From: Candidatus Omnitrophota bacterium
GTDB taxonomy: Bacteria > Omnitrophota > Gorgyraeia > JABMRG01 > JAFGKX01
Assembly: GCA_043797125.1 (NCBI GenBank)
Contig: JAZDPX010000033.1
Coordinates: 34,527 to 98,526 of the forward strand
DNA: 64,000 nucleotides
Direction: 5' to 3'
Part shown: one piece after another, positions 11,107 through 45,376 of the stretch
Layout: each line of letters opens with the position of its first letter
Position numbering within the stretch: position 1 is the stretch's first letter
Translations under genes and position numbers: made by a program
Notes under the pieces: generated by a model
Told to the model about the DNA's origin: nothing
Database searches by the model: none
What the model saw: only the letters and a program-made list of their open reading frames with translations

Positions 11107-11829
11107 CTATTTTTGGCTGTTGTTTTTATCCGTTTTTTTCAGTATAAAAGCAAATTGATAGTCATATCTTAACGGAATAAACATCCATAATATTCTGCAT
11201 ACCATTCTCTTAGCAATGCCGGGAAAATTTGTTTGCTGAAACTTCATGTACCATTTATCGCGATGGATATCAATGATTTCAAAACCGTTTCTGATAAAGG
11301 CGCCCTTCCATTGTTCCAATGATAACAGATTCTCGTTTATATCCTGCTGCTCCGTGCCGTATTTGGCGAAAAGTTTCCAAAAAATAAAATTGGAATTAGG
11401 CACCATTATGCAAAACAGGGCGTTGTTTTTCGCGACCCGCTTCATTTCAAAAAGGCCCTTATCCATATCCAGAAAATGTTCCAAAGACCCCAGGCATGTA
11501 ACATAATCAAAGGTATTATCGCCGAACCTTATGTCTTCCGCCTCGCCGACAGAGATAACCGAATCAGGAGAAATGCCCTTTGCAAGCCTTACGGCCTCTT
11601 CGGAGATATCGATGCCAAAAGTCTCCAGCCCTCTTTTTGATGCCGCGCAAAGCAAAAGCCCTATGCCGCAGGCAACATCTAAAAGCCTTCTGCCTCTTTG
11701 CGACCCCAGATAATCCAAAAATACGGTATATGCTTCGTACGGCCTTTTGTTTCTTACTCCTTCGGAGGCATATTTTTTATTATACCAGCTTCTGACTTCT
11801 TGTCCGGTCGGCGGTTTACGCATTCTCAT
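11107..11829 (-). CDS. Class I SAM-dependent methyltransferase
   Basis: LLDVACGIGLL motif I; 240 aa. Confidence 0.65.
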   Translation of the reverse strand: MRMRKPPTGQEVRSWYNKKYASEGVRNKRPYEAYTVFLDYLGSQRGRRLLDVACGIGLLLCAASKRGLETFGIDISEEAVRLAKGISPDSVISVGEAEDIRFGDNTFDYVTCLGSLEHFLDMDKGLFEMKRVAKNNALFCIMVPNSNFIFWKLFAKYGTEQQDINENLLSLEQWKGAFIRNGFEIIDIHRDKWYMKFQQTNFPGIAKRMVCRILWMFIPLRYDYQFAFILKKTDKNNSQK

Positions 11830-12775
11830 CTCTTATTTTCGATCCGGCCTGGGCCTTAAACTCATTAAAAAACACAAAAGTGAATATTATGCCCAAAAAC
11901 AGCACAACCAGAATGCTTATGGCCCTATCCACTATTGAGGCCAATGCGCCGTTTATGGCGGTAAATCCCATAACAGCGGATGTAATGGTTATAGCTGCCT
12001 CTTTAAAACCTAGATTTGCCGGTGTAATACTCACGAAAACAAAAAGCGAAACTATATTTGCCATAATTAATATTGCGATAAAATCGGGCCGGATACCTAT
12101 GGCCTGGTATGCAAAAAATAACCTTCCGGACAATACAAGCATGGATAAAAGGTTTAGCCCTGATAATATCAGAAGCAGGCTTTTCTGTTTCCTGAAATAA
12201 TTAAGGCCCGAAAATATTTTATTCACAGCTGCGACTTTAAAGCTTTTCCCGGCAAACCATTTCCAGGAAATCATAAAACCGCCGATAAAAATTCCGACGG
12301 AAATAAAAAATAATAATATCTTAAAATTAAAAATACCAGCAAGAAAATACCTAAGACAAATTAGCGCTATGCCGAATACCGCGTTTACCAAAAAAGAAAA
12401 AAAATAAAACCCCATATAGGCGGATAAAAAACTCAAATAGGGAAAATCATATTTGTTTTTCATGTAAAATGCTCTGGCGGTAACTCCTGCCTTTGCAGGC
12501 AATATATAATTACCTATACTGGTGAGGCAGGATAACCCGAACCATTCCTTAAAAGTCAGCCTTACGCCAAAGGCATCTGTAAGTTTTTTTGCGGAAAAGG
12601 CATTGATAATAAGATACAAAAACGTCAAAAATGTTATTGTAATTATATATGACAAAGAAATATGCGAAAGTTTATATAGCTGTTCTTTTCTTGCCATAAT
12701 AAAAGAAACAAATGCCGCAAGTATCGCAAATAATACGAGATAAGAAACCAAATAGGCCTTGTTATTCCGGCGCAT
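11816..12775 (-). CDS. Polytopic membrane protein (flippase-like / LPG-synthase-TM-like, UPF0104)
   Basis: 319 aa with about 8 predicted TM helices and no soluble domain. Confidence 0.4.
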   Translation of the reverse strand: MRRNNKAYLVSYLVLFAILAAFVSFIMARKEQLYKLSHISLSYIITITFLTFLYLIINAFSAKKLTDAFGVRLTFKEWFGLSCLTSIGNYILPAKAGVTARAFYMKNKYDFPYLSFLSAYMGFYFFSFLVNAVFGIALICLRYFLAGIFNFKILLFFISVGIFIGGFMISWKWFAGKSFKVAAVNKIFSGLNYFRKQKSLLLILSGLNLLSMLVLSGRLFFAYQAIGIRPDFIAILIMANIVSLFVFVSITPANLGFKEAAITITSAVMGFTAINGALASIVDRAISILVVLFLGIIFTFVFFNEFKAQAGSKIRDENA

Positions 12776-14333
12776 ATATAGACCGCCTGATTGATATGAC
12801 GCTTATAACCAGAATAACTGCCAAAATTACCATTGCCGATATCACTGCAGATAAAAGCCCCGGGGAAACCGCAGGGACATTCACCCACCATACATCCCAA
12901 ATATCATAATTTTTCATAGACGCGATTACCGGCTTTACAAACCAATAATCTGGGTTATATTCAAAATTCAGAGCCGGATACCCGAATACCCTGCCAACGG
13001 CAGAGGTAAATAAATACCAGCTCCCTCTTATCGGGCTTAATTCGGGTATAAAGTTTATAAAATATTCCTGCAGGCTTAATCCTTCTTTGACAAAAAGCAG
13101 GTATCTGCTAAAACTTATAAACAGGCACGGCAGCTGGACTAAAAACCCCAATGCGGAAAACAGAATCAACATAAGCTTCCTGATAATCGCCCTTGATTGT
13201 TGTATAAATTCTGCTAAAAATATGCACATAAAAGGAATTGTGGGGTATAGATAGCGCGGCCCCCATGAGAATATTGAACCTCTGAGAAATATGTATGCGT
13301 AAAATAAAAAATTTATGATTATAAACGCGAGAATATATAGGGTAAACTTCTTATCTTGTTTTAGCAGGCCCCTTATCCCGAAAAATGCCAGTATCAAGGG
13401 GGCGTTGTAGTAAAAGTACCCTTTCCCCGCGCTCAGCAGATAATAAAACAACCCTTTAAAAAAATTAGGGCCGAATATCAACCCTTTTTGCGTAAATACG
13501 GTTTCTATGCCTGCGCCGGGGTCAACTGCATTGCTTCTTTTCATAAAATAAATAAATAGCGACAGAATAAAACAGCAAGAGACCGGAATAATAACGGCAA
13601 GCCAAAGCTTGACAGCGTGCCTGGCTGATTTAAAATCCGCGCCCTTGTATACTAAATAGAAAAAAATCAGAAAAAGGTATAAAAAGGAATTCATCTTTAT
13701 GAGCAGGCTGTATCCTATCAATGCGCTGCTTAATAACGCGTAACGCGCAAGGGATTCTGATTCATATTTATGCAAAAATAAAAAAGCCGACAGCACAAAA
13801 AGTGTAACCGCAGGCTCTGAAAACCCCGAACGCGTATAGACAAGACTCATTGTGCAGAAGCTATAGCATAAAACCGTTATAACCTTGGTTTTTTTATCAT
13901 AACCAAGCCTTCCTAAAAGCATAAAAAGAATTAACGCTGTTAGCGCGCCGATTGCTGGATTTGCCAGCGAAACACAAAACTGGGTTATGTAATCATGGCC
14001 AATGCCGGAAAACGCCTTGGATATAATATGGCCCAACGCGTAAAGCGGCACAAGCAAAATAGGCATCCCGATGCCATAGGATGAATACCTGTTGCCTGCT
14101 GCGCCGGGTTTTTTACCTGCCTCATATTTCATCTCCTTTATGCCAAAAGGCCTGTCATAAATACTAATATCGCCGTCTAAAACTATGCTTTCGGCTGTAA
14201 GATAATTCTCCAACCCGTCGCCGCCATAATGTCCGTTTGAGAAAAACACAAAAAATGAGAAGAGAAAAATAAAAATATGCATATGCAGTAAAAATTTTCT
14301 TTTTCTTTGCAAAGAAAACAATCCCGGCATCAT
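12762..14333 (-). CDS. GT-C fold membrane glycosyltransferase (ArnT/PMT-like)
   Basis: Large polytopic protein. The ORF-track start is 14498. The start is refined to M56 (ATG 14333..14331), which overlaps the TGA of the upstream CDS as TGATG. Confidence 0.5.
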   Translation of the reverse strand: MMPGLFSLQRKRKFLLHMHIFIFLFSFFVFFSNGHYGGDGLENYLTAESIVLDGDISIYDRPFGIKEMKYEAGKKPGAAGNRYSSYGIGMPILLVPLYALGHIISKAFSGIGHDYITQFCVSLANPAIGALTALILFMLLGRLGYDKKTKVITVLCYSFCTMSLVYTRSGFSEPAVTLFVLSAFLFLHKYESESLARYALLSSALIGYSLLIKMNSFLYLFLIFFYLVYKGADFKSARHAVKLWLAVIIPVSCCFILSLFIYFMKRSNAVDPGAGIETVFTQKGLIFGPNFFKGLFYYLLSAGKGYFYYNAPLILAFFGIRGLLKQDKKFTLYILAFIIINFLFYAYIFLRGSIFSWGPRYLYPTIPFMCIFLAEFIQQSRAIIRKLMLILFSALGFLVQLPCLFISFSRYLLFVKEGLSLQEYFINFIPELSPIRGSWYLFTSAVGRVFGYPALNFEYNPDYWFVKPVIASMKNYDIWDVWWVNVPAVSPGLLSAVISAMVILAVILVISVISIRRSIYAPE

Positions 14334-15019
14334 CAATCCCTTTCTATTTCGTCCTTGTGCGCCTTGTAATAACGCGCAAAAGTAATGTAGGGCTTTATCC
14401 AGCTTAAAGCGCCTGCAATAGCTAAAAACACTAACCCTGCATACAATTTGTTTATTAGCACGAAAAATGTTATAACCCAGTACAACGATATCTCCCATCC
14501 TATATAAATGCCCTTTTTTATCTTTGCTTCAAATGACGGCCCTTTAATAAATTGCTCTTTCGTGTATAATGCAAATGAAGCCAGAAAGCAATGCCCAAGC
14601 GCCGTAAACCCCCATATAAATACTGCGGCGTTATTCTCAACTATATAGGCCCTGTAAGATAGGGATAGGAATATAAAAATAATTTTAATGATGTCAACGA
14701 ATGAATCAAACCACCTGCCGAATTTAGACGAAAGCCCTTTATACCTTGCGTATTGGCCGTCAAGCGTATCAAAAACATATCCTAAGTGCAGAAACAACAA
14801 GCCGAAAATTATGTACGGATAGGCAAAAAACGCAAAAAAACCGCTCCCTATTATTACGATAAACAAAGAGAGTAAGCTTATCTGATTCGCAGTTATGTTT
14901 AAGTGTTTGAAAAATCTATTAAGCAGAAAATTGGAAATAGGCCGGTAGATTAACATGCTAAACAGCTCCTTATGCCCTGCATCCTTTTCTTTATAAGTAA
15001 AATTTTTTGTTTCAGCCAT
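14333..15019 (-). CDS. CDP-alcohol phosphatidyltransferase family protein
   Basis: DTLDGQYARYKGLSSKFGRWFDSFVD matches D-x2-DG-x2-AR-x8-G-x3-D-x3-D. Polytopic. Confidence 0.7.
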   Translation of the reverse strand: MAETKNFTYKEKDAGHKELFSMLIYRPISNFLLNRFFKHLNITANQISLLSLFIVIIGSGFFAFFAYPYIIFGLLFLHLGYVFDTLDGQYARYKGLSSKFGRWFDSFVDIIKIIFIFLSLSYRAYIVENNAAVFIWGFTALGHCFLASFALYTKEQFIKGPSFEAKIKKGIYIGWEISLYWVITFFVLINKLYAGLVFLAIAGALSWIKPYITFARYYKAHKDEIERD

Positions 15020-15047: not shown

Positions 15048-15803
15048 TCAATCTTTTCGTAACAGCCATATATATGTCGGGCATAGCCAATACGCGTATT
15101 TCACTATCAATATGGCCAGCCTTTGCTTGAACGACTCAGGCGCAATCATCTCTGTAGCGCAATATTTTTGTGGATCTATAATAATTTTCAATGTATAGTC
15201 TGAAACATTAAATTGAGAGACTAGATTCCTCAGGCCATGTAATGTTAAGTGGTTTTCATAATAGAAGTTCCCTTTTTTTAGTGCCCGCAGATAAAGGTGC
15301 GCTAATGCCTTCGGCATAATTGATAGCAGCGGCAATTTATAGTGCATCTCGATAAATTTTAAACGGTTGGCGGCGGCAAAATAGCAAACACCCTCTGGCT
15401 TAAGCACTCTATATATTTCAGACATAAGTTTAATTGCATCCGGAACATGTTCATACACATGAGCGCAAATAACAATATCAAATGACGCATCTGCAAAGTT
15501 CAGGTTCATCCCGTCGCTAACGCTAAACGCCAAATTATCAGAAGCGCAGTTTTGCCGCGCATGCTTTATTGCCTGCTCGTCTATATCTATTCCTGCAACC
15601 CTGGCAAATTTATCGCTAAGCGCCTTCGATATAATTCCTGCGGAACAGCCTATATCTAAAAGGCTTAATCTTTCAAGGCCTTCGGAATAATAGTCATCGA
15701 GCACAGCAAACATCTTCCTGGCTTTTTGCTGGCGTTTCTGTGTATTATATACTGCGCAGGAATGAGTTTGTGAAAATCCATATTGGTAATTATTGTTTTT
15801 CAT
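15048..15803 (-). CDS. Class I SAM-dependent methyltransferase
   Basis: LLDIGCSAGIIS motif I. The ATG overlaps the upstream TGA as ATGA at 15800..15803. Confidence 0.65.
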   Translation of the reverse strand: MKNNNYQYGFSQTHSCAVYNTQKRQQKARKMFAVLDDYYSEGLERLSLLDIGCSAGIISKALSDKFARVAGIDIDEQAIKHARQNCASDNLAFSVSDGMNLNFADASFDIVICAHVYEHVPDAIKLMSEIYRVLKPEGVCYFAAANRLKFIEMHYKLPLLSIMPKALAHLYLRALKKGNFYYENHLTLHGLRNLVSQFNVSDYTLKIIIDPQKYCATEMIAPESFKQRLAILIVKYAYWLCPTYIWLLRKD

Positions 15804-16738
15804 TTCAAATTCTGCTTCTTCAACCTGTACAATACTTCCTCATTCAGCCTTCTATTAGCAGATATAATATCTCCCAAAAAACCTAACAACATTGTTCCAA
15901 AGCCCATAATAACTAAAATAGCGGCAATAACTAAAGACTGCATATGGCCGCTGCGTCCGACTGTAAAATAAAAATAGAGAAACCTTAGAATAAGTAAAAG
16001 GCCACCGCAGGCAAAGACAGAGCCAACACAAAAAAATGTTTTCAATGGTTCATACATAAGATAAATACGCAATATCGTACTCATCGATCTAACGATATAA
16101 GACGATATGCTCTTTATGAGCCTTGACTCCCTAAGCTTGCTGTTTGTTCTTATATCGACGTGCGATATCGGGATATCCTGCCTTCCTATCTGAATTATGG
16201 ACTCCAATGTGTATGTATACGAAGAAAAGATATTCAGCCTTAGCGCGGCGTCTCTCGAATATGCCCTGAAGCCGCTTGTCGTATCAGGTATATTCGTCCC
16301 TGAGAACTTACGAACCATATAACTTCCGAGCCTCTGCAGCAGTTTTTTCGCAAAAGAAAAGTGTTTTATGGCCTTAATATCCCTGCAGCCAATCACTACC
16401 TCTGCCTTTTTTTCCAACACCGGCCTTACCAGTTTTTCTATGTCCCGGCCGCAGTACTGGTTATCTGCGTCGGTATTAACTATAATATCAGCCCCAAGCT
16501 CCAAAGATTTTTCTATGCCTTTTTTAAACGCCTCTGCCAGGCCCTTCCTTTGAGGCAGGCAAAGGATATGTGTTACCTCGTTCGCCTTAGCTATCGAAGA
16601 GGTTTTATCTATGCTGCCATCATCTATAACCAAAGTTTCAATGCTGTCTATGCCTTCTATTTTTTTAGGCAAATCTTTTAAGGTTATAGGAAGGGTTTGC
16701 GCTTCGTTATAGCAGGGTATCTGGATAATAAGCTTCAT
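15800..16738 (-). CDS. GT2 polyprenyl-phosphate glycosyltransferase (DPM1/ArnC/GtrB-like, C-terminal TM anchor)
   Basis: IQIPCYNEAQTL...LVIDDGSIDKT plus two C-terminal TM helices. Confidence 0.75.
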   Translation of the reverse strand: MKLIIQIPCYNEAQTLPITLKDLPKKIEGIDSIETLVIDDGSIDKTSSIAKANEVTHILCLPQRKGLAEAFKKGIEKSLELGADIIVNTDADNQYCGRDIEKLVRPVLEKKAEVVIGCRDIKAIKHFSFAKKLLQRLGSYMVRKFSGTNIPDTTSGFRAYSRDAALRLNIFSSYTYTLESIIQIGRQDIPISHVDIRTNSKLRESRLIKSISSYIVRSMSTILRIYLMYEPLKTFFCVGSVFACGGLLLILRFLYFYFTVGRSGHMQSLVIAAILVIMGFGTMLLGFLGDIISANRRLNEEVLYRLKKQNLK

Positions 16739-16762: not shown

Positions 16763-17503
16763 TCAATCTAACTCTTTTTTAGCGACTATATATGACAACT
16801 TGCATATCCACACAACCGGCATCGCTATGCCGTAAAAAATAACTACCGCAAACACAACACCGCATCGGCAAAATAATTCTGTTATGGTTGCTAATGTTAT
16901 TATATTCATAACGGGCGGAAAAGTGCACAATTTATGCAGCGCAGAAAATAATTTTCGCGCTAAAGAAGGATTTTTTGCCGTGAGCTTATCTGTGTCAAGC
17001 GGCAGATCCCTTTTCCCCGCGAAATATAAAACAGAGTTCCTTAAATCCACCAATAAAATCAAAAGCATAGACGATATCGCGGCTGACGAAGAAAACAAAA
17101 AAACATAACCTATTGCATATTTTCGCCATAAACCGTAACCGATGCCGATAAAAACAAGCGGGTGGATAATATAATGACATATGTTGTCATAGTAAATTCC
17201 TGTAACGGTCGAGGTATTCCTGTAGCGGGCTATCTCACCGTCAACATGGTCTAATATATACCAAAGCTGTAAAAACAGCGCTGCGGTGAACGCGCCTATT
17301 TTTGAACCTTCTGTGAAAAATACGCAGGCTACTATACCTGTAAGCAAAAATATAGATGTCGCGGTATTCGGCGTTAAGTTCATCGCTAAAAATACCCGCG
17401 TTATGTATATAGAAAACCTGCGGGCAACAAATTTACCATACCAGACATCATACTGCTCTCTGGGTTTTTGGCATATGGTTCTAAGCTGGCTGATACTTTC
17501 CAT
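16763..17503 (-). CDS. CDP-alcohol phosphatidyltransferase family protein (second paralog)
   Basis: DHVDGEIARYRNTS...G...D motif. The start is refined to M24 (ATG 17503..17501), which overlaps the TAA of the decarboxylase as TAATG. Confidence 0.7.
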   Translation of the reverse strand: MESISQLRTICQKPREQYDVWYGKFVARRFSIYITRVFLAMNLTPNTATSIFLLTGIVACVFFTEGSKIGAFTAALFLQLWYILDHVDGEIARYRNTSTVTGIYYDNICHYIIHPLVFIGIGYGLWRKYAIGYVFLFSSSAAISSMLLILLVDLRNSVLYFAGKRDLPLDTDKLTAKNPSLARKLFSALHKLCTFPPVMNIITLATITELFCRCGVVFAVVIFYGIAMPVVWICKLSYIVAKKELD

Positions 17504-18645
17504 TATAGCAGCTTCTCCCTGTGCGTTTTTTTGGCGCTTAACCTCATAAACTTTTCTTTTATGGCTTTGCATGTATACTTTTCCGAAATTCTTGGCCTTT
17601 TCTTGTTTTCATTATTAATCAATATATGCACAAAGGCCGCGCCGCGCTTCTTAAGCAAGCCCGGAAAAGCGCTGCGCAACTTGTCCTCTTGCGCAAAACT
17701 ATAAATATTTTTATAACCGGTGGCTTGCGCTATTTTGCAAAAATCGATATTTTGTGAAAGCGCAGGCTGGCCTCCTGTTGACGCGTAAGTACCGTTATCC
17801 AGCACAACATGCATCAGGCTTTTGGATTTCTTATCAGCGACAGACGCCATAGAGCCCAAATGCATCAGGCAGCCTCCGTCTCCGTCTAAAACAATTACCC
17901 TCTTGTCATTATTAACATGCCTTGCTATTCCCAAACCGATTGAATGGGCATGCCCCATAGACCCAAGCATATAAAATGCAGGGTTAAAATCCTCTATGCC
18001 TTTTTTGCTAAGGTTATAAAATGCCTCCCTGCTTATATACCCGTTTGTTGTGACAAAATACGCTTTGTTGTGCCCTGCGCTCATAATAATGTCTATTGCC
18101 TCACTTAGCGGCATTGAATACTTGGATTTTAAAGCAAACTCGCTTTCTTCTTTATCTATTATACCTTTTTTTAAAATTAAGGCTGCCGGTTTATTTGTCT
18201 TCTTTGCCAGCCTGACTATATATTTTACTTCATTTCTGAAATTGTTTTTTGTTAATACAGCGTACGGCACATTCAATGTCTTTAGCATTGTTTTTATCTT
18301 CTTGCCTGTTATATCGTGTTCCGGGGCGTCTTTTGTCCCCGGCTCGCCCCTCCACGAAACTACCAATAAAGCCGGTATATCATATATCTGATTCAAAGAT
18401 GTAAGGCTGTTTATGGTATTACATAACCCTGAATTCTGCATGAGTAAAACAGGCACCTTTTTTGTAATAAGGAAACTGCCGGCTGCCAGACCCATTGCTG
18501 AAGCCTCGCTTACCGGATTTAACACTTCGCAGGCTTTATCCCGCGTAAGCCCGGATATTAACGGCGCCAATATGGAACACGGCACTTCTATATAGGGGCT
18601 GAGGTTATTTTTTTTGAATTCTCTTATTAATTGGTCTGCTTTCAT
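17503..18645 (-). CDS. ppd: Phosphonopyruvate decarboxylase (ThDP-dependent)
   Basis: ThDP-enzyme architecture of about 380 aa. N-terminus MKADQLIREFKKNNLSPYIEVPCSIL is typical of Ppd/sulfopyruvate decarboxylase. It lies immediately downstream of PepM. The ATG 18645..18643 overlaps the PepM TGA (TGATG). Confidence 0.75.
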   Translation of the reverse strand: MKADQLIREFKKNNLSPYIEVPCSILAPLISGLTRDKACEVLNPVSEASAMGLAAGSFLITKKVPVLLMQNSGLCNTINSLTSLNQIYDIPALLVVSWRGEPGTKDAPEHDITGKKIKTMLKTLNVPYAVLTKNNFRNEVKYIVRLAKKTNKPAALILKKGIIDKEESEFALKSKYSMPLSEAIDIIMSAGHNKAYFVTTNGYISREAFYNLSKKGIEDFNPAFYMLGSMGHAHSIGLGIARHVNNDKRVIVLDGDGGCLMHLGSMASVADKKSKSLMHVVLDNGTYASTGGQPALSQNIDFCKIAQATGYKNIYSFAQEDKLRSAFPGLLKKRGAAFVHILINNENKKRPRISEKYTCKAIKEKFMRLSAKKTHREKLL

Positions 18646-20270
18646 CAACTCACCGAAGAGGAAAATATAGCGCACGCCTTTTTATAATCATCGAAGTTGT
18701 GTATTTCCATCCAACCGCTCGTTACCTCATATGCAAGGACCTCATATTTTTTATTGATCAAATGCCCGATTAACTCGGCAAACGAAGCTGTCTGCATAGG
18801 CCTTGACTTCTTATACTCGTCTACCAGCGCCTTCATTCCCTTTTTTGAAAGCATGGCAAGCCCTATAAACTCAAAGTGCGCCTCCTTCTCCGAAATATCA
18901 TTACCGATATTTCGTATAGGATTTTTTCTATTTAAATCCATTGTTCTTAAATTATCAAGGTGCGCTGTTTTAGCGACCACAAGCTCAAGCTGCTTGTTGC
19001 GGATGTGGGTTTTTTTGTATGTACTGTCAACTACCAGTATTATATCATCGTCCTTTTTAAGCAGCCTTTGCAAAAGGTACTGGTCTACAAGTATGTCGGA
19101 ATATAAAATCAAATTCTTGTCGGCAATCTTATCTATGCCTTTCATTATTGAATACATTATGCCCTTACTTCTATAGCTTTTGTTTTCTATGATCCCGGCG
19201 CCTTCAAGCTTTACGTTGGAGCTTTTATATCCCACGACTACGCTTATATCCTGCACCCCTGCGGTATTCAACGTTTCTACGTTCCTTTGCAGCAGCGATT
19301 TTCCGTTTATGTCCAACATCCCTACAGGCCTATCCTCAAGAAGAGGTTTAAGAGAGTTATCCATTTTTGGCCCAGCTGCCGGTATTATGGCTTTAATGCT
19401 TCCTGTATTTGTTTTTAAATACTTTCTTTCATTGCTTTTCATAATATGCATACCTTGCAGCCTGAAGACCTCATCCATTGAAACGATTTTTGAATCAATA
19501 CCTGAAATCCCGTTATCTTTTATATATTTAAGGGCCTGTTTTATGCACTTAATGCCGGCCCTCATTCCGTGGTTGGCATATATTACTACGCTTGCTCCAA
19601 GGTCTCTCATTTGCTTTTCGCTTAAGTCATACATGGTTGGGCATAAAACAAGAGGAGCTCTTTTCTTCCATGCCTTGCAGAAATTGATTATCTCATCCGG
19701 CGTTTTCGATTTTGAATGTATAAATATTCCGTCTGCTCCAGCCTCTATATAAGCCTGCGCCCTTTTTAAAGCCTCGTCCTGGCCCCATCCAGCTATCAGC
19801 GCCTCTACCCTGGCAAATACCATGAAATCATCCGTTGTTTGAGAGTTTTTTGCCGCCATTATCTTGCCGACAAATTCCGCGATAGGCGCAAGTTCCTGCC
19901 TGCCGGGAATAAAACTGTTAACTTTCGGAAATTGTTTATCTTCTATGCAGACAGCGCTAACGCCTGCTGATTCAAATTTTCTTATCATATGCATAACGTT
20001 GTTTGAATTACCAAAACCCGTATCGCAATCCACCATAATAGGTATGGAGGTTGCATTAACCATGCTTTCCGTAGCATACAGCAAATCGCTCATTGTCAAA
20101 ATATTTGCGTCAGGAACAGCATGCGAAGTGGCTATTTCAAAGCCCGACGCCCACACCCCGTCAAAACCTGCCTCCTGGACCAGTTTTGCGGTTAAGCCAT
20201 TGTGCGCCCCTACTATCTTTATAAGCTTTCCTTTGCGAATAAGGTTTTTAAAACTGATTCTTTCTCTCAT
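18645..20270 (-). CDS. pepM: Bifunctional phosphoenolpyruvate phosphomutase / nucleotidyl(cytidylyl)transferase (PepM-PntC/Fom1-like fusion)
   Basis: N-terminal isocitrate-lyase/PEP-mutase fold carries the PepM-specific EDKQFPKVNS (EDKX5NS) motif. C-terminal about 230 aa is an NTP-transferase domain (KAIIPAAGPKMDNSLKPLL...). The start is refined to M12 (ATG 20270). Confidence 0.8.
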   Translation of the reverse strand: MRERISFKNLIRKGKLIKIVGAHNGLTAKLVQEAGFDGVWASGFEIATSHAVPDANILTMSDLLYATESMVNATSIPIMVDCDTGFGNSNNVMHMIRKFESAGVSAVCIEDKQFPKVNSFIPGRQELAPIAEFVGKIMAAKNSQTTDDFMVFARVEALIAGWGQDEALKRAQAYIEAGADGIFIHSKSKTPDEIINFCKAWKKRAPLVLCPTMYDLSEKQMRDLGASVVIYANHGMRAGIKCIKQALKYIKDNGISGIDSKIVSMDEVFRLQGMHIMKSNERKYLKTNTGSIKAIIPAAGPKMDNSLKPLLEDRPVGMLDINGKSLLQRNVETLNTAGVQDISVVVGYKSSNVKLEGAGIIENKSYRSKGIMYSIMKGIDKIADKNLILYSDILVDQYLLQRLLKKDDDIILVVDSTYKKTHIRNKQLELVVAKTAHLDNLRTMDLNRKNPIRNIGNDISEKEAHFEFIGLAMLSKKGMKALVDEYKKSRPMQTASFAELIGHLINKKYEVLAYEVTSGWMEIHNFDDYKKACAIFSSSVS

Positions 20271-20272
20271 TT

Positions 20273-21493
20273 TTACCTCTTTACGCCGGCATTTCTCCAG
20301 CACGCCGGGTCTCCGGCAAAAAATGCGTCCGGATTAAGCCTGGATGGGTCATAGTTGCCTTTTTCGTCAAATGCCGAATCATCGTAGGCCCTGGTGCGGC
20401 AGCCGTAGCAGCGGCCTTCCTTGCTAAGCTGGCAATTCGCGGTTGAACATTTTGAGTTCTCATGCAGCTGAGAATATATATTCCTGAATCTCTTTACCTT
20501 CTCCGACATAACAATATCGGTAAACAAAGTGTCCCTTATGTTTCCCAATGCCCAGAAATCCGGCGCCTCCGAGCAGGGCAGCACAACGCCGTCCGCCCTT
20601 ACATGGACGCCTCCTAAATGCCTTGAGCATGCCTTATTCTCAACCCACGGGCTTTGCGCCTTCCAATGAATGTCAAATTCCTTTCCATCTATATCAGCTA
20701 CCTTTTCAAACAACCTCATAATACTCTCTGAATTCAATGTTCCGCCTGATAATTTTCCGCAAAGCATTACAGATACATTTTTTTTAGCTGTGCCGTGAAC
20801 ATGGACAGGTATGATAAAAGGCCTGAAGTTATGCCTTCTAGACCATCGGAAAACATCACACACATCGTCATAGTTTAAAACAGTAACTACGGTATTAGTT
20901 GAAAGAGGCGGCATATCAGGCCTTCCATACCCTGCCTTTATAAGGTGCGCGAACCCCTGCATCATCTTTTTTGAGCCGCCTTTAATGCCGAGCAACTTAT
21001 CCTGTATGTCTTCATTTAACGAATCTAGTTTGCAGCATAATGAAATACCGTCTTCGGCAAGCCTTTTTGCCTTTTCTTCGTTAATAACAGCTACATCTGT
21101 AAAGCTTACCAGATCAAGAGGCAGGCCTTTCTCTTCAAAAAGAGCCCTTGCATATTCTACCACATGGAAGAAGGCTTCGCCACCTTTACCCTTGAAATCA
21201 GGCGGATTCCAGACTAAAGGCTCCCCGCCCTGCATGTTTATTATCCTTACCCCTAACCCAGCTGCCTGGCTGATAATATCCTTTGCCTCATGCATGGTCA
21301 ATTGATTTGTTCTCTCGGGAGAACCCTCGGCATAACAATAAATACACCGGAAATTGCACTTTTGTGTAACCATGATATCGACCGACAAAAGCACAGCGCC
21401 CTGCGATTTCATACGCTCTATAATATCCCTGCCTAATCCCGCCATTCCCGGATAAAGAGTTATGTTTTCCTTATTTGCTGGTTTTCTCTCCAT
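20273..21493 (-). CDS. Radical SAM enzyme with Cys-rich C-terminal (SPASM/twitch-like) domain
   Basis: CNFRCIYC (Cx3Cx2C), GGEPL, and C-terminal CSTANC...CYGC cysteines. The stop lies 2 nt before the PepM start. Confidence 0.7.
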   Translation of the reverse strand: MERKPANKENITLYPGMAGLGRDIIERMKSQGAVLLSVDIMVTQKCNFRCIYCYAEGSPERTNQLTMHEAKDIISQAAGLGVRIINMQGGEPLVWNPPDFKGKGGEAFFHVVEYARALFEEKGLPLDLVSFTDVAVINEEKAKRLAEDGISLCCKLDSLNEDIQDKLLGIKGGSKKMMQGFAHLIKAGYGRPDMPPLSTNTVVTVLNYDDVCDVFRWSRRHNFRPFIIPVHVHGTAKKNVSVMLCGKLSGGTLNSESIMRLFEKVADIDGKEFDIHWKAQSPWVENKACSRHLGGVHVRADGVVLPCSEAPDFWALGNIRDTLFTDIVMSEKVKRFRNIYSQLHENSKCSTANCQLSKEGRCYGCRTRAYDDSAFDEKGNYDPSRLNPDAFFAGDPACWRNAGVKR

Positions 21494-21511: not shown

Positions 21512-22387
21512 TTATCCGAACGCAGCTATCAGATATATTCCTATAAATATAATAACCGCGCCGGCAAATCTTACCTTAGCGTACTTTTCTTTTAAAAACA
21601 AAATTCCGTACAAAGAACCAAAAACCACGCTTATCTGCCTTAATGCGATAACATATGCAACCTTTGACATGCGAAACGCATAAAGGATTAATATATAAGA
21701 TAGAAATTCCAGCACCGCGGCTAACGCGATGCTGAATTTATCTTTTTTCGTGATATAAAAATAGTTCCTGCGCCTTTCCTTCATAAATAAAAGATACCCT
21801 AAAAACAAAAAACCCGACAAGGCAAAAAAAAGGTAAAAAAACAAAATAGGGTGCATTAACAGAACTCCCTTTTTATCAACGACAGAATAACATGCCGAAG
21901 AAAAGGCGGTTAACCCCGCGAAAAATACAACCTTTTTATTTATATGCCTAAAAGGATCAAGGATTCCTGAAAAGGATATCTTTTTTTGGTTTATAAGATA
22001 TGCCCCCAACATGACAACTATAATTCCCAATATTGCTATCTTTGACGGGACCTCACCTAATAATATAAATGCCATAAGAAGGACAAATACGGGAGAAGAC
22101 CTTATAATCGGATATGACAAAGACATGTCCGCGCCTTCGTAGGTCTTGCACAGGAATATCTGGTAAAAAAAATGAGTGCATGCGGAAACTATTACAAGCA
22201 CCCAGCCTGCGATGCTGACATCTTTTAGCGGATACAAAAACAGAATAAAACAAAACGCCAGCGTATAAAAAAGGTGTATGTTCAGATAAAATATCACCTT
22301 GTCCTCGCTTTTTTTCAGCAGCATATTCCACAGAGGATGGATAACGCTTGATATAATTACCAGCAAGAAACTAATTTCTGTTATCAT
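21512..22387 (-). CDS. EamA/DMT-family transporter (LicB-like)
   Basis: 291 aa with 10 TM helices in two 5-TM repeats. Confidence 0.6.
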   Translation of the reverse strand: MITEISFLLVIISSVIHPLWNMLLKKSEDKVIFYLNIHLFYTLAFCFILFLYPLKDVSIAGWVLVIVSACTHFFYQIFLCKTYEGADMSLSYPIIRSSPVFVLLMAFILLGEVPSKIAILGIIVVMLGAYLINQKKISFSGILDPFRHINKKVVFFAGLTAFSSACYSVVDKKGVLLMHPILFFYLFFALSGFLFLGYLLFMKERRRNYFYITKKDKFSIALAAVLEFLSYILILYAFRMSKVAYVIALRQISVVFGSLYGILFLKEKYAKVRFAGAVIIFIGIYLIAAFG

Positions 22388-23147
22388 GACAACCTATTTT
22401 TTCAATCTCGCTTAATGCCTTTTTATAATCCTCAACAGTGTCTATTTCCCGCCAGCCGCCTTTTACTGTTACGCAGTGAACCGCAATTCCTGAATCCGCC
22501 AGATCCTGAACCATGTCTGTTAAATACGCCTTTTCAAATACCGGAGCCCTCTGAAATGGCTTGCCGTCATAAATAGGCTTTATCTTATTAAAATGGTTTC
22601 TAAAAATAGCCGCTCCCTTTTTTGTGCATTTTATCATGCCGACAAATTCACCGTGAACGGCGTTTTTATCACCAAGGGCCTTGCCGATTTTAAGTACCTT
22701 TTTATCGGAATCCATTATAACATTTTCCGCTTCATCAATCGGGTGGTCTTTTCTGCCTTTATAATAGGCGCGCCAGTCGGTGTCAACCAGAATGGCTATA
22801 TCTTTTTTGCAATTTAACAGCCTTTTCGCGATCTTGGCGTCAAACAATATATCCGAATACGAAGCTATAAACTCATCGTCCATCTCCCGCTGGGCGCAAA
22901 AAAGTGAATGCAGTATATCGTTATGAAGATATCTTTCATTTACATAATATTTGAGCCCCGGATAATCTATCTTTTCTTTTTTATAACCCACTATGACTGA
23001 TATGTCTTTCACGCCGGCGCTCCTGAAAGCCTCAAACTGGGATTGAAGGAGAGTTTTCTTATTAAATTCCAGCAGGCATTTAGGCAGGTCATCGGTTAGC
23101 TCATTCATCCTCTTGCCTCTTCCCGCTGCTATAATAATCGCTTTCAT
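22371..23147 (-). CDS. LicC-like nucleotidyltransferase (phosphocholine/phosphonate cytidylyltransferase family)
   Basis: MKAIIIAAGRGKRMNELTDDLPKCLL N-terminal NTP-transferase signature. It is a paralog of the C-terminal domain of the PepM fusion. Confidence 0.7.
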   Translation of the reverse strand: MKAIIIAAGRGKRMNELTDDLPKCLLEFNKKTLLQSQFEAFRSAGVKDISVIVGYKKEKIDYPGLKYYVNERYLHNDILHSLFCAQREMDDEFIASYSDILFDAKIAKRLLNCKKDIAILVDTDWRAYYKGRKDHPIDEAENVIMDSDKKVLKIGKALGDKNAVHGEFVGMIKCTKKGAAIFRNHFNKIKPIYDGKPFQRAPVFEKAYLTDMVQDLADSGIAVHCVTVKGGWREIDTVEDYKKALSEIEKIGCHDNRN

Positions 23148-31918: not shown

Positions 31919-33202
31919 TTATTTTTTCCACGCCGGCATATGAGACTTAGGCTGATATTTTTTAATCAGCATGGTCCTTTCTCTTAATAAATCTTCGGCT
32001 GACAAGGCCTTGGTCCTCACCCTTGCTTCGGCCAGCCCTTGGCCGTGAGTATGCGCTCCCAGGCCCTCTCCTAGGAATTGTAAATCAATATCCTTATTCT
32101 GATCCATGGCTTTCCTTATCGCGGTCCCCTTATAAGGATAATAGATCGCGAGCTGGAAATCATCCAGGCCAAAAATATCAATTGATTTTCGGATGAATTC
32201 CTCGGTTTCGGAAATTGTTTTATGGTCCTCGCCGGGCAGGCCCAACATCATGTACGCCTTTACTCCTATACCGTAATTTTTCGCTATTCTGATAAAATCG
32301 TAGTTTTGCTGAACGGAAGTCTTTTTGTTTATAGCGTCAAGTATTTTCTGGCTTCCTGATTCGGCGCCGAAAGCCATTTCGCAGCAACCTGCGTCTTTGA
32401 GGGCCGCGGCTAGCTTATCGTTCATAAATTTTGCGTGGGCGTTGCATCTAAACAGCAGCCCGCTTTCTTTGATAACATCCAGATAGGGTTTTATCATCGC
32501 CAGATTTATCGCAAACATATCGTCGGGAATATAAAAGGCCTCATACCCAAGCGTCTTTATGTCAGCCAATTCCCTAGCAGCCAAATCCACGCTATGCCAC
32601 CTTGTCGTAGACCTTGCGCTCGCGCAGAAGTTGCACGCCAACGGGCAACCCCTGCCGACAATCAATATGGTGGATTTTAATCCGGGCCTAAGCTCGTAGC
32701 GATGCCTTGCCAAAAAGTCTTTTCTTCCGATTCTGTCCGGCTTCGGGATAAGTTCCAGCTCTTTTCTCATCAGGATATCGTCTAAAATCCTGTCTTTAGC
32801 CTCGCCTTTTAGTATCTTCACTATGTCTCTTTCGCCGTCGCCTTTAACCATGTAATCCCAGGTCTCTTTAGCCACGTCATCGGTATAATAAGTGACGTGG
32901 GGGCCTCCGGCTATCATAACCTTTTTGGGCCACACGGACTTTACGCTGTTTAAAATGGCGGTGGCCTCTTTTCTCTGCGGGGTCATTATAGAAACACCGA
33001 TGGCATCAAAGCCCTCGAATCGCCTTAGCCCGGCATCCGTTAAATCGTAATCGTCGTCGATTTCAACCTTCACGTGCGGCAAATCCCTTTTTACTGCTGC
33101 GTCCAGATATAAAACCCCCATAGGCGCGTGGACTCTGGGGTCATCCAAATACGGGCTTTTGCAGGTTAACAGCAATATGCTTTTTAGCGGCTTGGCATTC
33201 AT
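31919..33202 (-). CDS. B12-binding (class B) radical SAM enzyme
   Basis: VGRGCPLACNFCAS cluster after an N-terminal B12-binding-like domain; 427 aa. Confidence 0.75.
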   Translation of the reverse strand: MNAKPLKSILLLTCKSPYLDDPRVHAPMGVLYLDAAVKRDLPHVKVEIDDDYDLTDAGLRRFEGFDAIGVSIMTPQRKEATAILNSVKSVWPKKVMIAGGPHVTYYTDDVAKETWDYMVKGDGERDIVKILKGEAKDRILDDILMRKELELIPKPDRIGRKDFLARHRYELRPGLKSTILIVGRGCPLACNFCASARSTTRWHSVDLAARELADIKTLGYEAFYIPDDMFAINLAMIKPYLDVIKESGLLFRCNAHAKFMNDKLAAALKDAGCCEMAFGAESGSQKILDAINKKTSVQQNYDFIRIAKNYGIGVKAYMMLGLPGEDHKTISETEEFIRKSIDIFGLDDFQLAIYYPYKGTAIRKAMDQNKDIDLQFLGEGLGAHTHGQGLAEARVRTKALSAEDLLRERTMLIKKYQPKSHMPAWKK

Positions 33203-43038: not shown

Positions 43039-43041
43039 GTT

Positions 43042-44532: not shown

Positions 44533-44552
44533 ATAAACCTCTCCTGCCGCAA

Positions 44553-45374: not shown

Positions 45375-45376
45375 GC

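What the first reader, a model, noticed from the sequence alone, without database searches (positions are those of the whole stretch)
20273..21493. Non-B12 radical SAM with Cys-rich C-terminal domain directly coupled to pepM
The radical SAM enzymes known from phosphonate pathways (Fom3, PhpK) are B12-binding class B. This one instead has an N-terminal CNFRCIYC cluster and a C-terminal Cys cluster (CSTANC...CYGC...C). It occupies the first position of the coupled pepM operon. Its substrate is unknown. One candidate is the CMP-phosphonate made by the fused cytidylyltransferase.
Basis: inference. Interest (0 to 1): 0.7.

Follow-up and report, generated by a model that had tools for sequence, protein, structure and literature searches.

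The report
Radical SAM enzyme tied to phosphonate synthesis
This gene encodes an uncharacterised oxygen-independent iron-sulfur "radical SAM" enzyme that, in many uncultured anaerobic bacteria and archaea, sits beside the genes that make carbon-phosphorus compounds, so it probably performs an undescribed step in building a phosphonate decoration for the cell surface.

Summary
ORF 20273-21493 (-) encodes a 406-aa radical SAM protein with a CX3CX2C motif and a 7-Cys SPASM domain, and no B12 domain. Its stop codon lies 2 nt before the likely start of a PepM-cytidylyltransferase fusion, which is followed by phosphonopyruvate decarboxylase.

The window comes from a Candidatus Omnitrophota MAG. The protein belongs to a tight family (at least 54% identity, about 80 clusters) that no NCBIfam model names. 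I collected 52 loci of this family. All 18 loci with at least 3 kb on both sides carry PepM and Ppd within 7.2 kb. The 19 loci without PepM are all truncated.

A stand-alone LicC/PntC-like cytidylyltransferase is equally conserved next to the enzyme. A sister family (about 32% identity) shares about 20 specific residues. It sits in PepM-Ppd-Fe-ADH clusters that carry MpnS/HEPD-like oxygenases. In one sister protein the enzyme is fused to that cytidylyltransferase.

No aminotransferase or Fe-ADH occurs in the 64-kb window. No aminotransferase occurs in nearly all relatives, and no Fe-ADH in any.

Best reading: this is a dedicated phosphonate-tailoring radical SAM enzyme, probably acting on a CMP-linked product of phosphonoacetaldehyde. 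The reaction is unknown. I found no description of the family in the literature. It is a new variant of a known kind.

The parts
20273..21493 (-). Radical SAM / SPASM enzyme (406 aa). C46/C50/C53 bind the SAM cluster, the GGEP motif is at 89-92, and the SPASM cysteines are C289, C307, C349, C354, C362, C365 and C398. C153-C154 are also invariant.
18645..20303 (-). PEP mutase (EDKQFPKVNS motif) fused to a C-terminal LicC/PntC-like cytidylyltransferase (NTP_transf_3). The likely true start is ATG 20270.
17503..18675 (-). Phosphonopyruvate decarboxylase (Ppd).
   Evidence: TIGR03297, 325.7 bits, above the cutoff.
21512..22387 (-). EamA/DMT-family membrane transporter. It is immediately upstream of the radical SAM gene in the bacterial-type loci and is related to the TIGR03340 'phosphonate-associated' family, but scores below its cutoff.
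22371..23147 (-). Stand-alone LicC/PntC-like cytidylyltransferase ('NTPtr'). It is the conserved partner of the radical SAM enzyme, and its orthologue is fused to the sister radical SAM enzyme in P0335.
16763..17572 (-). CDP-alcohol phosphatidyltransferase-family membrane transferase (a). It is the likely installer of the CMP-activated head group.
14333..15019 (-). CDP-alcohol phosphatidyltransferase-family membrane transferase (b).
15800..16738 (-). GT2 polyprenyl-phosphate glycosyltransferase-like protein (AglJ/ArnC-like). It is conserved in 7 loci.
15048..15803 (-). Class I SAM methyltransferase.
12762..14498 (-). GT-C (PMT_2/ArnT-like) membrane glycosyltransferase.
11816..12775 (-). LPG_synthase_TM-family membrane protein. 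It is syntenic in L001 and L011.

Best explanation
The gene encodes a three-cluster radical SAM/SPASM enzyme that is a dedicated, oxygen-independent tailoring enzyme of a phosphonate pathway.

Shown by the evidence:
- PepM converts PEP to phosphonopyruvate and Ppd decarboxylates it to phosphonoacetaldehyde (PnAA).
- Two LicC/PntC-type cytidylyltransferases are encoded. One is fused to PepM. The other is the constant neighbour of the radical SAM gene.
- CDP-alcohol-type phosphotransferases, a GT2, a GT-C and an EamA transporter are encoded around them.

Inferred:
- The radical SAM enzyme works as a pair with the stand-alone cytidylyltransferase on a PnAA-derived C2 phosphonate. The substrate is most likely the CMP ester, following the logic of Fom1-CyTase and Fom3 in fosfomycin biosynthesis.
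- Reductive cleavage of SAM gives the 5'-deoxyadenosyl radical, which abstracts a hydrogen atom from C1 or C2 of the phosphonate side chain.
- The two auxiliary [4Fe-4S] clusters remove or return one electron, and C153 (with C154) is a possible hydrogen-atom donor.
- The result is a modified phosphonate head group, which the CDP-alcohol transferases then attach to a surface glycolipid or glycan.

The exact chemical outcome is not determined. It could be oxidation, dehydration, rearrangement or C-C cleavage.
For: Superfamily membership is established. Pfam finds Radical_SAM and SPASM. All 12 cysteines and the GGEP motif are invariant in 23 sequences. The AlphaFold model (pLDDT 78, pTM 0.81) matches SkfB, anSME, CteB and SuiB, and then the nucleotide-using viperin and MoaA. 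The profile search against PDB gives SkfB 2e-9, a viperin-like enzyme 1e-7, MoaA 3.5e-7, anSME 1.3e-6 and BtrN 4.9e-6.

The pathway link is strong. PepM and Ppd lie within 7.2 kb in 18/18 fully flanked loci, and PepM is seen in 33/52 loci overall. No untruncated locus is an exception, and the loci span five phyla including archaea. In L002 the co-directional run is only EamA-rSAM-PepM~CT-Ppd, with opposite-strand genes on both sides. In L005 and L009 the run ends at Ppd, next to an opposite-strand gene; the end of the L006 run is not resolved.

The cytidylyltransferase link is also strong. The stand-alone cytidylyltransferase lies 15-173 nt from the radical SAM gene, or is separated from it only by EamA. 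In archaeal-type loci it is a non-homologous PF01467 protein in the same position. P0335 is a fusion of NTP_transferase and the radical SAM enzyme, and its N-terminal domain is 44% identical to window 22371-23147 but only 24% identical to the PepM-fused cytidylyltransferase.

The sister family points the same way. It shares family-specific residues, many of them basic: L13xPGM17, C153, D157, H231, N286-K287, R291, H297, R299, S308-E309, T367-R368. These are conserved in 74 plus 115 sequences and absent from the outgroup. Its members lie in PepM clusters in 5 of 6 contexts.

No known enzyme that acts on PnAA is nearby. No PLP aminotransferase or Fe-ADH was found among the ORFs of at least 150 aa in the whole 64-kb window. 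Fe-ADH is absent from all 52 tight-family loci, and Aminotran_5 occurs in only one distinct locus.

There is precedent. The PepM-fused CyTase of Fom1 makes CMP-HEP (Rice et al. 2019, PMC6697681, read). That CMP-HEP is the substrate of the radical SAM enzyme Fom3 is from established knowledge.
Against: No biochemical data exist for any member, and all members come from uncultured organisms. Whether cytidylylation comes before or after the radical step is not resolved. The role of two cytidylyltransferases per cluster is unexplained.

Association with the accessory enzymes is inconsistent. Tight-family clusters have neither Fe-ADH nor, with one exception, an aminotransferase, yet the sister family always has Fe-ADH. 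So the two families may not share a substrate.

Both window cytidylyltransferases have Y-S-D where Tde-PntC has E104-S-D and LicC has D-A-D. Their substrate is therefore not necessarily the AEP of characterised PntC enzymes.

One sister-family context, a marine Rhodospirillaceae contig, has no PepM within 8 kb. Relatives at about 30% identity sit in aryl-polyene-like lipid clusters, so the wider clade is not restricted to phosphonates.
Confidence: 0.5

Rival explanations
1. The enzyme is the branch-point enzyme itself. It acts on free phosphonoacetaldehyde in place of the missing transaminase or alcohol dehydrogenase. One candidate reaction is an anSME/BtrN-type two-electron oxidation of the aldehyde hydrate to phosphonoacetate. 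The neighbouring cytidylyltransferase then activates the product.
For: PepM and Ppd are the only recognisable phosphonate enzymes in L002. Fe-ADH is absent from all 52 tight-family loci, and an aminotransferase occurs in only one. No aminotransferase or Fe-ADH is present in the 64-kb window. The SPASM domain aligns best with the dehydrogenases anSME and BtrN. Li and Horsman (PMC8942020) single out Ppm-Ppd neighbourhoods without a known branch enzyme as the main source of undiscovered chemistry.
Against: L023/L045 carries an Aminotran_5 in the same cluster, and its close relative L044 lacks it, so the two functions are not mutually exclusive. The sister family shares the specific residues yet always co-occurs with Fe-ADH and mostly with MpnS/HEPD-like enzymes. 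An NAD-dependent aldehyde dehydrogenase would suffice for this oxidation without oxygen. Housekeeping transaminases or dehydrogenases elsewhere in the genomes cannot be excluded.
Confidence: 0.25
2. The enzyme is the oxygen-independent counterpart of the non-haem-iron oxygenases HEPD, MpnS and HppE. It would initiate the same kind of hydrogen abstraction on a C2 phosphonate and give, for example, methylphosphonate or another C1/C2-modified product in anoxic organisms.
For: The sister family lies beside MpnS (E 1e-158 and 1e-166 against 6B9S) or HEPD/HppE-like genes in 4 contexts. This recalls paired aerobic and anaerobic isoenzymes such as HemF and HemN (established knowledge). The tight family occurs in anaerobic lineages whose clusters otherwise resemble MpnS clusters but lack both the oxygenase and the ADH.
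Against: This rests purely on context. No radical SAM precedent exists for the required C-C cleavage. A carbon-centred radical at C2 of PnAA hydrate or HEP does not fragment the C1-C2 bond by simple beta-scission. Co-occurrence with MpnS can equally mean a different, additional step.
Confidence: 0.1
3. The enzyme does not touch the phosphonate. It modifies a sugar nucleotide, the glycan or the lipid acceptor of the surface polymer, and merely travels with the phosphonate genes.
For: The window is one long surface-glycan locus containing GT1/GT2/GT9/GT-C genes, NeuB in two copies, WbuX/HisH/HisF, a flippase and MBOAT. Relatives at about 30% identity sit in lipid-type clusters. The stand-alone cytidylyltransferase also resembles sugar-1-phosphate nucleotidyltransferases over its N-terminal 100 residues.
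Against: The run in L002, and the downstream end of the runs in L005 and L009, contain no glycan or lipid genes. The constant partners are PepM, Ppd and a cytidylyltransferase, while the glycosyltransferases vary (GT2 in 7 of 16 loci and CDP-OH in 6 of 16).
Confidence: 0.1
4. The enzyme is a RiPP maturase, like most characterised SPASM proteins.
For: The best structural and sequence matches are peptide maturases: SkfB, CteB and SuiB.
Against: Only about 35 residues precede the CX3CX2C motif, so there is no room for an RRE/PqqD domain. No conserved small ORF lies next to the gene, since the intergenic gaps are 2 and 18 nt. The conserved neighbours are all small-molecule enzymes.
Confidence: 0.01

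Closest known systems
Fom3 with Fom1-CyTase (fosfomycin biosynthesis, Streptomyces)
   Same: A radical SAM enzyme works in a PepM/Ppd pathway in which PepM is fused to a cytidylyltransferase. The CMP ester of a C2 phosphonate is the radical SAM substrate. In both cases the cytidylyl group serves as a handle (PMC6697681; established knowledge).
   Different: Fom3 is a class-B, cobalamin-dependent methyltransferase. The window protein has no B12 domain and has a SPASM domain instead. No Fe-ADH (FomC equivalent) is present. The reaction is unknown.
anSME and BtrN (SPASM/twitch radical SAM dehydrogenases)
   Same: These give the best alignments of the C-terminal domain. The 'DG-V-PC' motif and the Cys-rich block align with anSME Cys276 and Cys317-330. 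The fold match has TM 0.60-0.62. BtrN acts on a small molecule.
   Different: Identity is only 18-20%. The cysteine spacing is Cx4Cx7Cx2C rather than CX2CX5CX3C. The upstream eighth cysteine of anSME (Cys255) has no counterpart, so auxiliary cluster I may have an open or non-Cys ligand. The substrates are unrelated.
Viperin and MoaA (nucleotide-using radical SAM enzymes)
   Same: The core domain matches both by sequence profile (a viperin-like enzyme at 1e-7, MoaA at 3.5e-7) and by fold. They act on CTP and GTP, which fits a proposed CMP-linked substrate.
   Different: NCBIfam scores are far below the cutoffs (viperin 42.8 against 180; MoaA 62.8 against 284). Viperin has no auxiliary cluster and MoaA has one. 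The similarity is generic to the radical SAM core.
HEPD / MpnS / HppE (O2-dependent non-haem-iron enzymes acting on HEP or HPP)
   Same: They occupy the same pathway position, tailoring a C2 phosphonate after Ppd. They are physically adjacent to the sister radical SAM family.
   Different: The fold (cupin) and cofactor are unrelated and require O2. They are absent from all 52 tight-family loci.
Campylobacter 'GCF 385' Ppm-Ppd neighbourhoods flanked by radical SAM and adenylylsulfate kinase genes (Li and Horsman 2022)
   Same: This is the only literature mention I found of a radical SAM gene beside ppm-ppd without a known branch enzyme. The sister-family locus L067 shows the same arrangement of APS kinase, radical SAM and cytidylyltransferase.
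   Different: It is only listed as unclassified and was never analysed. I could not retrieve the Campylobacter sequence, so its membership of either family is untested.

Membership tests
Radical SAM superfamily | CX3CX2C motif binding the SAM-cleaving [4Fe-4S] cluster | tested here: met
   C46-x3-C50-x2-C53 is invariant in 23/23 sequences and in all 74 tight, 115 sister and 47 outgroup sequences.
Radical SAM superfamily | Pfam PF04055 above its gathering score, plus the GGE SAM-binding motif and a partial TIM-barrel fold | tested here: met
   55.5 bits against 29.5. G89-G90-E91-P92 are invariant. The AlphaFold model matches radical SAM structures with Foldseek probability 1.00.
SPASM subfamily | PF13186 hit and the seven-cysteine motif CX9-15GX4C ... 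CX2CX5CX3C ... C | tested here: inconclusive
   PF13186 scores 35.9 bits against 21.5. Seven invariant cysteines and G302-x4-C307 are present, but the spacings are C289-x17-C307 and C349-x4-C354-x7-C362-x2-C365 ... C398, which differ from the canonical pattern.
SPASM subfamily | Two auxiliary [4Fe-4S] clusters actually bound | not testable with these tools
   This needs Fe/S analysis, EPR or Moessbauer spectroscopy, or a crystal structure.
Class B (cobalamin-dependent) radical SAM methyltransferases (Fom3, PhpK) | N-terminal B12-binding domain (PF02310) | tested here: not met
   No PF02310 hit at E up to 0.01, and only about 40 residues precede the cluster motif. Three other genes in the window do have the domain.
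RiPP-maturing SPASM enzymes | RRE/PqqD-like leader-binding domain and an adjacent precursor peptide gene | tested here: not met
   There is no N-terminal domain. The gaps to the neighbouring genes are 2 and 18 nt. The conserved neighbours are PepM, Ppd, a cytidylyltransferase and EamA.
Named NCBIfam equivalogs (AhbD, NirJ, MoaA, viperin, PqqE, ArsS and others) | Score at or above the curated cutoff | tested here: not met
   The best hit is AhbD at 72.2 bits against a cutoff of 500. All 25 listed hits are far below their cutoffs.
Phosphonate biosynthetic gene cluster (PepM-dependent) | PepM with the EDKxxxxxNS motif, coupled to Ppd | tested here: met
   EDKQFPKVNS is present in the ORF 18645-20303. 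PEP_mutase scores 8e-61. TIGR02320 scores 313 bits, just under its cutoff of 319.6. Ppd (TIGR03297) scores above its cutoff.
Phosphonyl-tailoring (Pnt) pathway of Rice et al. 2019 | A PntC cytidylyltransferase specific for 2-AEP together with an AEP transaminase | tested here: inconclusive
   Both cytidylyltransferases are LicC/PntC-like (1JYK at 6e-17 and 3e-7; 6PD1 at 4e-6). No AEPT is present in the window. The amine-binding Glu/Asp is replaced by Tyr. Substrate specificity cannot be tested here.

The most novel reading that the evidence does not exclude
The family, together with its sister family in MpnS/HEPD clusters, is the oxygen-independent radical counterpart of the HEPD/MpnS/HppE oxygenases. 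It would convert phosphonoacetaldehyde or its CMP ester directly, with no transaminase or dehydrogenase, into a C1/C2-remodelled phosphonate such as methylphosphonate. This would give anoxic sediments, groundwater and candidate-phylum bacteria and archaea their own route to such phosphonates.
Probability: 0.1. Interest if true: 0.9.

Novelty: new variant of a known kind. Interest (0 to 1): 0.65.

Why it matters
All characterised radical SAM enzymes of phosphonate metabolism are either cobalamin-dependent methyltransferases (Fom3, PhpK) or the catabolic PhnJ. This would be a third type.

It is a SPASM enzyme that is a constant partner of PepM, Ppd and a cytidylyltransferase in at least five phyla of mostly anaerobic, uncultured organisms. 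Its sister family sits inside methylphosphonate-synthase clusters. Together they point to an undescribed step of phosphonate biosynthesis and probably to an undescribed phosphonate head group on cell surfaces.

Most of these clusters lack every known enzyme that acts on phosphonoacetaldehyde. The enzyme is therefore a concrete candidate for part of the roughly one-eighth of Ppm neighbourhoods that Li and Horsman could not classify.

The hypothesis is directly testable: the co-directional run in L002 is only four genes. A positive result would bear on where reduced-phosphorus compounds come from in anoxic environments.

Tried and rejected
- **Curated families.** No NCBIfam model comes near its cutoff. 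The PDB sequence and fold searches gave only generic SPASM, twitch and viperin matches (TM at most 0.62), so they give no functional transfer.
- **An overlooked AEP transaminase or alcohol dehydrogenase.** Candidates of about 370 aa after Ppd in L001, L004 and L016 turned out to be an unknown protein, UDP-GlcNAc 2-epimerase, a GDSL lipase and GT1 enzymes. tblastn with Aminotran_5, DegT-type, Fe-ADH and MpnS queries against the window and all loci was negative, except for Aminotran_5 in L023/L045, DegT-type hits in L010 and L031, and the sister loci. A Pfam scan of the remaining window ORFs of at least 150 aa found none.
- **The one aldehyde dehydrogenase in the window (43042-44532).** It is like alpha-ketoglutaric-semialdehyde dehydrogenase, sits in a sugar-acid block 21 kb away, and is not conserved in relatives. 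I rejected it as a PhnY-type partner.
- **B12 radical SAM neighbours as Fom3 or PhpK orthologues.** All score below the cutoffs. The best are the 'Sden_1168 P-methyltransferase' model at 309-373 bits against 575 in L023 and L031, and the KedN5-like model at 219 against 700 in the window.
- **Promoter and terminator scan.** No signal defines an operon start.
- **Literature.** Seven full-text searches found no characterisation of this family. Metcalf 2012 was not held in the library.
- **Model coordinates.** They are not exposed to scripts, so I could not analyse the pocket or the distances between cysteines and clusters.
- **RiPP maturase reading.** Rejected for lack of an RRE domain or a precursor gene.
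Full report
**1. What is in the sequence**

The ORF at 20273..21493 on the minus strand encodes 406 aa. A GAGGG ribosome-binding site lies 8 nt before its ATG, and the upstream EamA gene ends 18 nt before it. Pfam finds Radical_SAM (residues 41-216, 55.5 bits against a cutoff of 29.5) and SPASM (residues 289-354, 35.9 against 21.5), and no B12-binding domain.

The TAA stop (20275-20273) is followed after two bases by ATG 20270. An AAGAGG Shine-Dalgarno sequence lies inside the last radical SAM codons. That ATG is the likely start of the next gene; the mechanically longest ORF starts at GTG 20303.

The next gene is a PEP mutase (PF13714, 8e-61; EDKQFPKVNS motif) fused to an NTP_transf_3 cytidylyltransferase. 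Phosphonopyruvate decarboxylase follows it (TIGR03297, 325.7 bits, above its cutoff). Further downstream lie two CDP-alcohol phosphatidyltransferase-family proteins, a GT2, a methyltransferase, a GT-C and an LPG_synthase_TM protein. Upstream lie an EamA transporter, a second stand-alone cytidylyltransferase and a flippase.

Every ORF of at least 150 aa that I take to be a gene is on the minus strand, and the gaps are tiny. The radical SAM gene is therefore translationally coupled to pepM but is not demonstrably the first gene of a transcription unit. Promoter-like matches are at chance level, and no terminator-like match marks a gene boundary here.

The rest of the 64-kb window is a surface-glycan locus. 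It contains:
- two NeuB genes with CTP_transf_3 genes;
- WbuX, HisH and HisF;
- GT1, GT2, GT9 and GT-C genes, and MBOAT;
- three B12-binding radical SAM genes.

**2. What family it belongs to**

The exact protein is annotated only as 'radical SAM protein' in a Candidatus Omnitrophota MAG (P0001). About 80 clusters at 90% identity share at least 54% identity with it. Identity then drops abruptly to 33% or less. In a library clustered at 50% identity the whole family collapses into one full-length representative.

No NCBIfam model comes near its cutoff. The best is AhbD at 72 bits against 500, followed by NirJ2, MoaA, a pseudo-SAM/SPASM family, AhbC and further SPASM maturases, with viperin lower in the list.

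An alignment of 23 members shows the following as invariant:
- C46/C50/C53 and the GGEP motif;
- a C153-C154 pair;
- seven C-terminal cysteines (C289, C307, C349, C354, C362, C365, C398).

By alignment to anSME, the 'DG-V-PC307' motif corresponds to Cys276, and the Cys-rich block to Cys317-330. The spacing (Cx4Cx7Cx2C) differs from the canonical SPASM pattern. anSME's eighth ligand (Cys255) has no counterpart, so one auxiliary cluster may have an open or non-cysteine ligand.

An AlphaFold model built on the alignment (pLDDT 77.8, pTM 0.81) matches SkfB, anSME, CteB and SuiB, and then viperin, MoaA, BlsE and DesII, at TM 0.5-0.62. This is generic radical SAM/SPASM similarity, not a functional assignment. 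Only about 35 residues precede the cluster motif, so there is no RRE domain.

**3. Is the pepM adjacency conserved?**

Pattern scans of one genome per species and of JGI metagenomes, plus exact-protein look-ups, gave 52 loci of the tight family including the window. I mapped the window's proteins onto them. The results are:
- PepM is present in 33 loci.
- All 18 loci with at least 3 kb on both sides have PepM and Ppd within 7.2 kb.
- Each of the 19 loci without PepM is truncated within 2.4 kb on at least one side.

The carriers are labelled Omnitrophota, Chloroflexi/Dehalococcoidia, Planctomycetes, Deltaproteobacteria and Thermoplasmatota. Three gene orders occur:
- [CT]-EamA-rSAM-PepM~CT-Ppd;
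- PepM~CT-Ppd-CT-EamA-rSAM;
- archaeal-type orders with a PF01467 cytidylyltransferase fused to PepM.

In L002 the co-directional run is only EamA-rSAM-PepM~CT-Ppd, with opposite-strand genes on both sides. In L005 and L009 the run ends at Ppd, next to an opposite-strand gene. A group at 40% identity (L016) is also directly upstream of PepM~CT-Ppd.

Relatives at about 30% identity (P0084, P0091) sit in aryl-polyene-like lipid clusters with ketosynthases, ACP, an acyltransferase and an ApeP-like domain, and no pepM. The phosphonate link is therefore specific to this clade.

**4. The second constant partner is a cytidylyltransferase**

Besides the PepM-fused cytidylyltransferase, a stand-alone one lies next to the radical SAM gene. 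In bacterial-type loci it is separated only by EamA. In the others it is 15-173 nt away. In archaeal-type loci it is a 138-aa PF01467 protein rather than the PF12804 protein, which is a non-homologous replacement in the same position.

Both window cytidylyltransferases are LicC/PntC-like (1JYK at 6e-17 and 3e-7; 6PD1 at 4e-6). Both have Y-S-D where Tde-PntC has E104-S-D and LicC has D-A-D. That is the acidic residue that contacts the amine of AEP or choline (PMC6697681). This is weak evidence that the substrate is not simply AEP.

**5. A sister family**

A profile search of 1.84 billion representatives, followed by a word-indexed search, found a larger family of 465-520 aa at 31-33% identity. 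It occurs in Woesearchaeota, Patescibacteria, Acidobacteria, marine Alpha- and Gammaproteobacteria, Deltaproteobacteria, Armatimonadota and Omnitrophica.

Seventy-four tight-family and 115 sister sequences share residues that 47 outgroup sequences lack: L13xPGM17, D39, C153, D157, N200, P229, H231, N286-K287, R291, H297, R299, S308-E309-x-P311 and T367-R368. Many are basic, as expected for an anionic phosphonate or nucleotide substrate.

Five of six long sister-family contexts contain PepM, all with Fe-ADH, and four of the five show Ppd. Four contain an MpnS/HEPD/HppE-family gene:
- L063/64 and L066 match N. maritimus MpnS (6B9S) at E 1e-158 and 1e-166.
- L067 has a 451-aa homologue and L070 a half-size one.

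L067 has an APS-kinase gene next to the radical SAM gene. This is the arrangement Li and Horsman noted, without analysis, for Campylobacter (PMC8942020).

P0335 (722 aa) is a fusion of a cytidylyltransferase and the sister radical SAM enzyme, and is preceded by Fe-ADH. Its N-terminal domain is 44% identical to the window's stand-alone cytidylyltransferase but only 24% identical to the PepM-fused one.

One marine Rhodospirillaceae context has no PepM within 8 kb.

**6. What is missing**

The known enzymes that act on phosphonoacetaldehyde are absent:
- Fe-ADH in 0 of 52 tight-family loci.
- MpnS in 0 of 52.
- Aminotran_5 in only one distinct locus (L023, which is the same as L045). Its close relative L044 lacks exactly that gene.

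The ORFs of at least 150 aa in the window include no PLP aminotransferase and no Fe-ADH. The single aldehyde dehydrogenase (43042-44532) is GucD-like, lies 21 kb away in a sugar-acid block, and is not conserved in relatives.

B12 radical SAM genes recur near the SPASM gene (L001, L004, L008, L023, L024, L025, L029, L031, L044, L047). None reaches a curated cutoff. NUDIX and CMP-kinase genes follow the stand-alone cytidylyltransferase in L008, L010 and L025.

**7. Most likely mechanism**

Shown by the evidence:
- PepM and Ppd make phosphonoacetaldehyde.
- Two cytidylyltransferases and two CDP-alcohol-type transferases are encoded.
- The radical SAM enzyme is genetically locked to PepM, Ppd and the stand-alone cytidylyltransferase.

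Inferred:
- The enzyme acts on a PnAA-derived C2 phosphonate, most likely as its CMP ester. The grounds are the fusion in P0335, the non-homologous cytidylyltransferase replacement, and the precedent of Fom1-CyTase and Fom3.
- The 5'-deoxyadenosyl radical abstracts a hydrogen atom from C1 or C2.
- The auxiliary clusters shuttle an electron, and C153 (with C154) may donate a hydrogen atom.
- The tailored CMP-phosphonate is then transferred to a glycolipid or glycan.

I put about 0.9 on 'dedicated phosphonate-pathway enzyme' and about 0.5 on the CMP-ester tailoring model.

The rivals are:
- a branch-point enzyme acting on free PnAA, for example oxidising the hydrate to phosphonoacetate (0.25);
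- an O2-independent analogue of HEPD/MpnS/HppE (0.1);
- an enzyme acting on a sugar or lipid acceptor (0.1);
- a RiPP maturase (0.01).

The differing accessory enzymes (none, AEPT, or ADH with an oxygenase) argue that the radical SAM step does not simply substitute for one of them. The complete absence of ADH from tight-family clusters keeps rival 1 alive.

**8. Comparison with what is known, and novelty**

The protein is a member of the radical SAM superfamily and, with atypical cysteine spacing, of the SPASM subgroup. It is not a class-B enzyme, a RiPP maturase or any named equivalog. In function it most resembles the Fom1/Fom3 logic, but with a different enzyme class.

Seven full-text searches found no description of this family. 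The only trace is one sentence on Campylobacter neighbourhoods.

I rate it a new variant of a known kind: a new phosphonate-dedicated SPASM clade with unknown chemistry. Interest is 0.65. The association is robust and the hypothesis is testable, but the reaction remains unknown and all carriers are uncultured.

Noticed in passing
window 29162-31204, 31919-33202, 36903-38297 (all on the minus strand): Three B12-binding (class B) radical SAM genes lie 8-17 kb upstream, inside a NeuB/CTP_transf_3 nonulosonic-acid block. The first is KedN5-like (219 bits against a cutoff of 700). B12 radical SAM genes also recur beside the SPASM gene in relatives. The L023 and L031 copies approach the 'Sden_1168 P-methyltransferase' model (309-373 bits against 575).
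   Followed up: partly
window 20268-20303: The PepM fusion probably starts at ATG 20270, 2 nt after the radical SAM stop codon and with an AAGAGG Shine-Dalgarno sequence. The GTG 20303 of the longest ORF is probably not the real start.
   Followed up: yes
L063/L064 9733-11100, L066 6148-7509, L067 12286-13641, L070 8317-9015: The sister radical SAM family (about 32% identity) lies next to methylphosphonate synthase (E 1e-158 and 1e-166 against PDB 6B9S) or HEPD/HppE-like genes, in PepM-Ppd-Fe-ADH clusters of Woesearchaeota, Gammaproteobacteria and others. I found no description of this component of MpnS clusters.
   Followed up: partly
L065 783-2951 (protein P0335): This is a natural fusion of a LicC/PntC-like cytidylyltransferase with the sister radical SAM/SPASM enzyme, preceded by an Fe-ADH gene. 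The cytidylyltransferase domain is 44% identical to window 22371-23147.
   Followed up: yes
window 22371-23147 (residues 97-99) and the CT domain of 18645-20303: Both cytidylyltransferases carry Tyr-Ser-Asp where AEP-specific Tde-PntC has Glu104-Ser-Asp and LicC has Asp-Ala-Asp. One of the two acidic residues that contact the substrate amine is therefore missing.
   Followed up: partly
L019-L022: Relatives at about 30% identity, some fused to an ApeP-like domain (PF22817), sit in aryl-polyene-like lipid clusters with ketosynthases, ACP, an acyltransferase, an AMP-binding enzyme and B12 radical SAM genes.
   Followed up: no
L008 14602-16037, L010 14760-16060, L025 12875-14124: NUDIX hydrolase and cytidylate kinase genes directly follow the stand-alone cytidylyltransferase in one subgroup. 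This suggests hydrolysis of a CMP-linked intermediate and recycling of CMP.
   Followed up: no
L067 9450-9971 (also L068 and L069): An APS-kinase homologue lies immediately upstream of the sister radical SAM gene. This recalls the 3'-phosphorylation of the cytidine diphosphoramidate donor in Campylobacter MeOPN synthesis, and the Campylobacter ppm-ppd neighbourhoods listed by Li and Horsman.
   Followed up: no
L070 11502-14319: An FrhB/FdhB-like iron-sulfur flavoprotein, a methyltransferase and a second, smaller radical SAM/SPASM gene (336 aa) follow the sister radical SAM gene.
   Followed up: no
window 38269-46923: A second sugar-acid block contains transketolase, CTP_transf_3, a ketopantoate-reductase-like protein, a galactonate-dehydratase-like enolase, a GucD-like aldehyde dehydrogenase, an SDR, a HAD and a second NeuB. 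It probably makes an unusual CMP-activated ulosonic acid. A split transketolase also appears in the sister-family locus L067.
   Followed up: partly
window 35517-36884, 47867-50311, 50330-51376: Three sizeable ORFs (455, 814 and 348 aa) have no Pfam hit at E up to 1e-5. The 455-aa ORF also has no NCBIfam hit at 1e-10.
   Followed up: no
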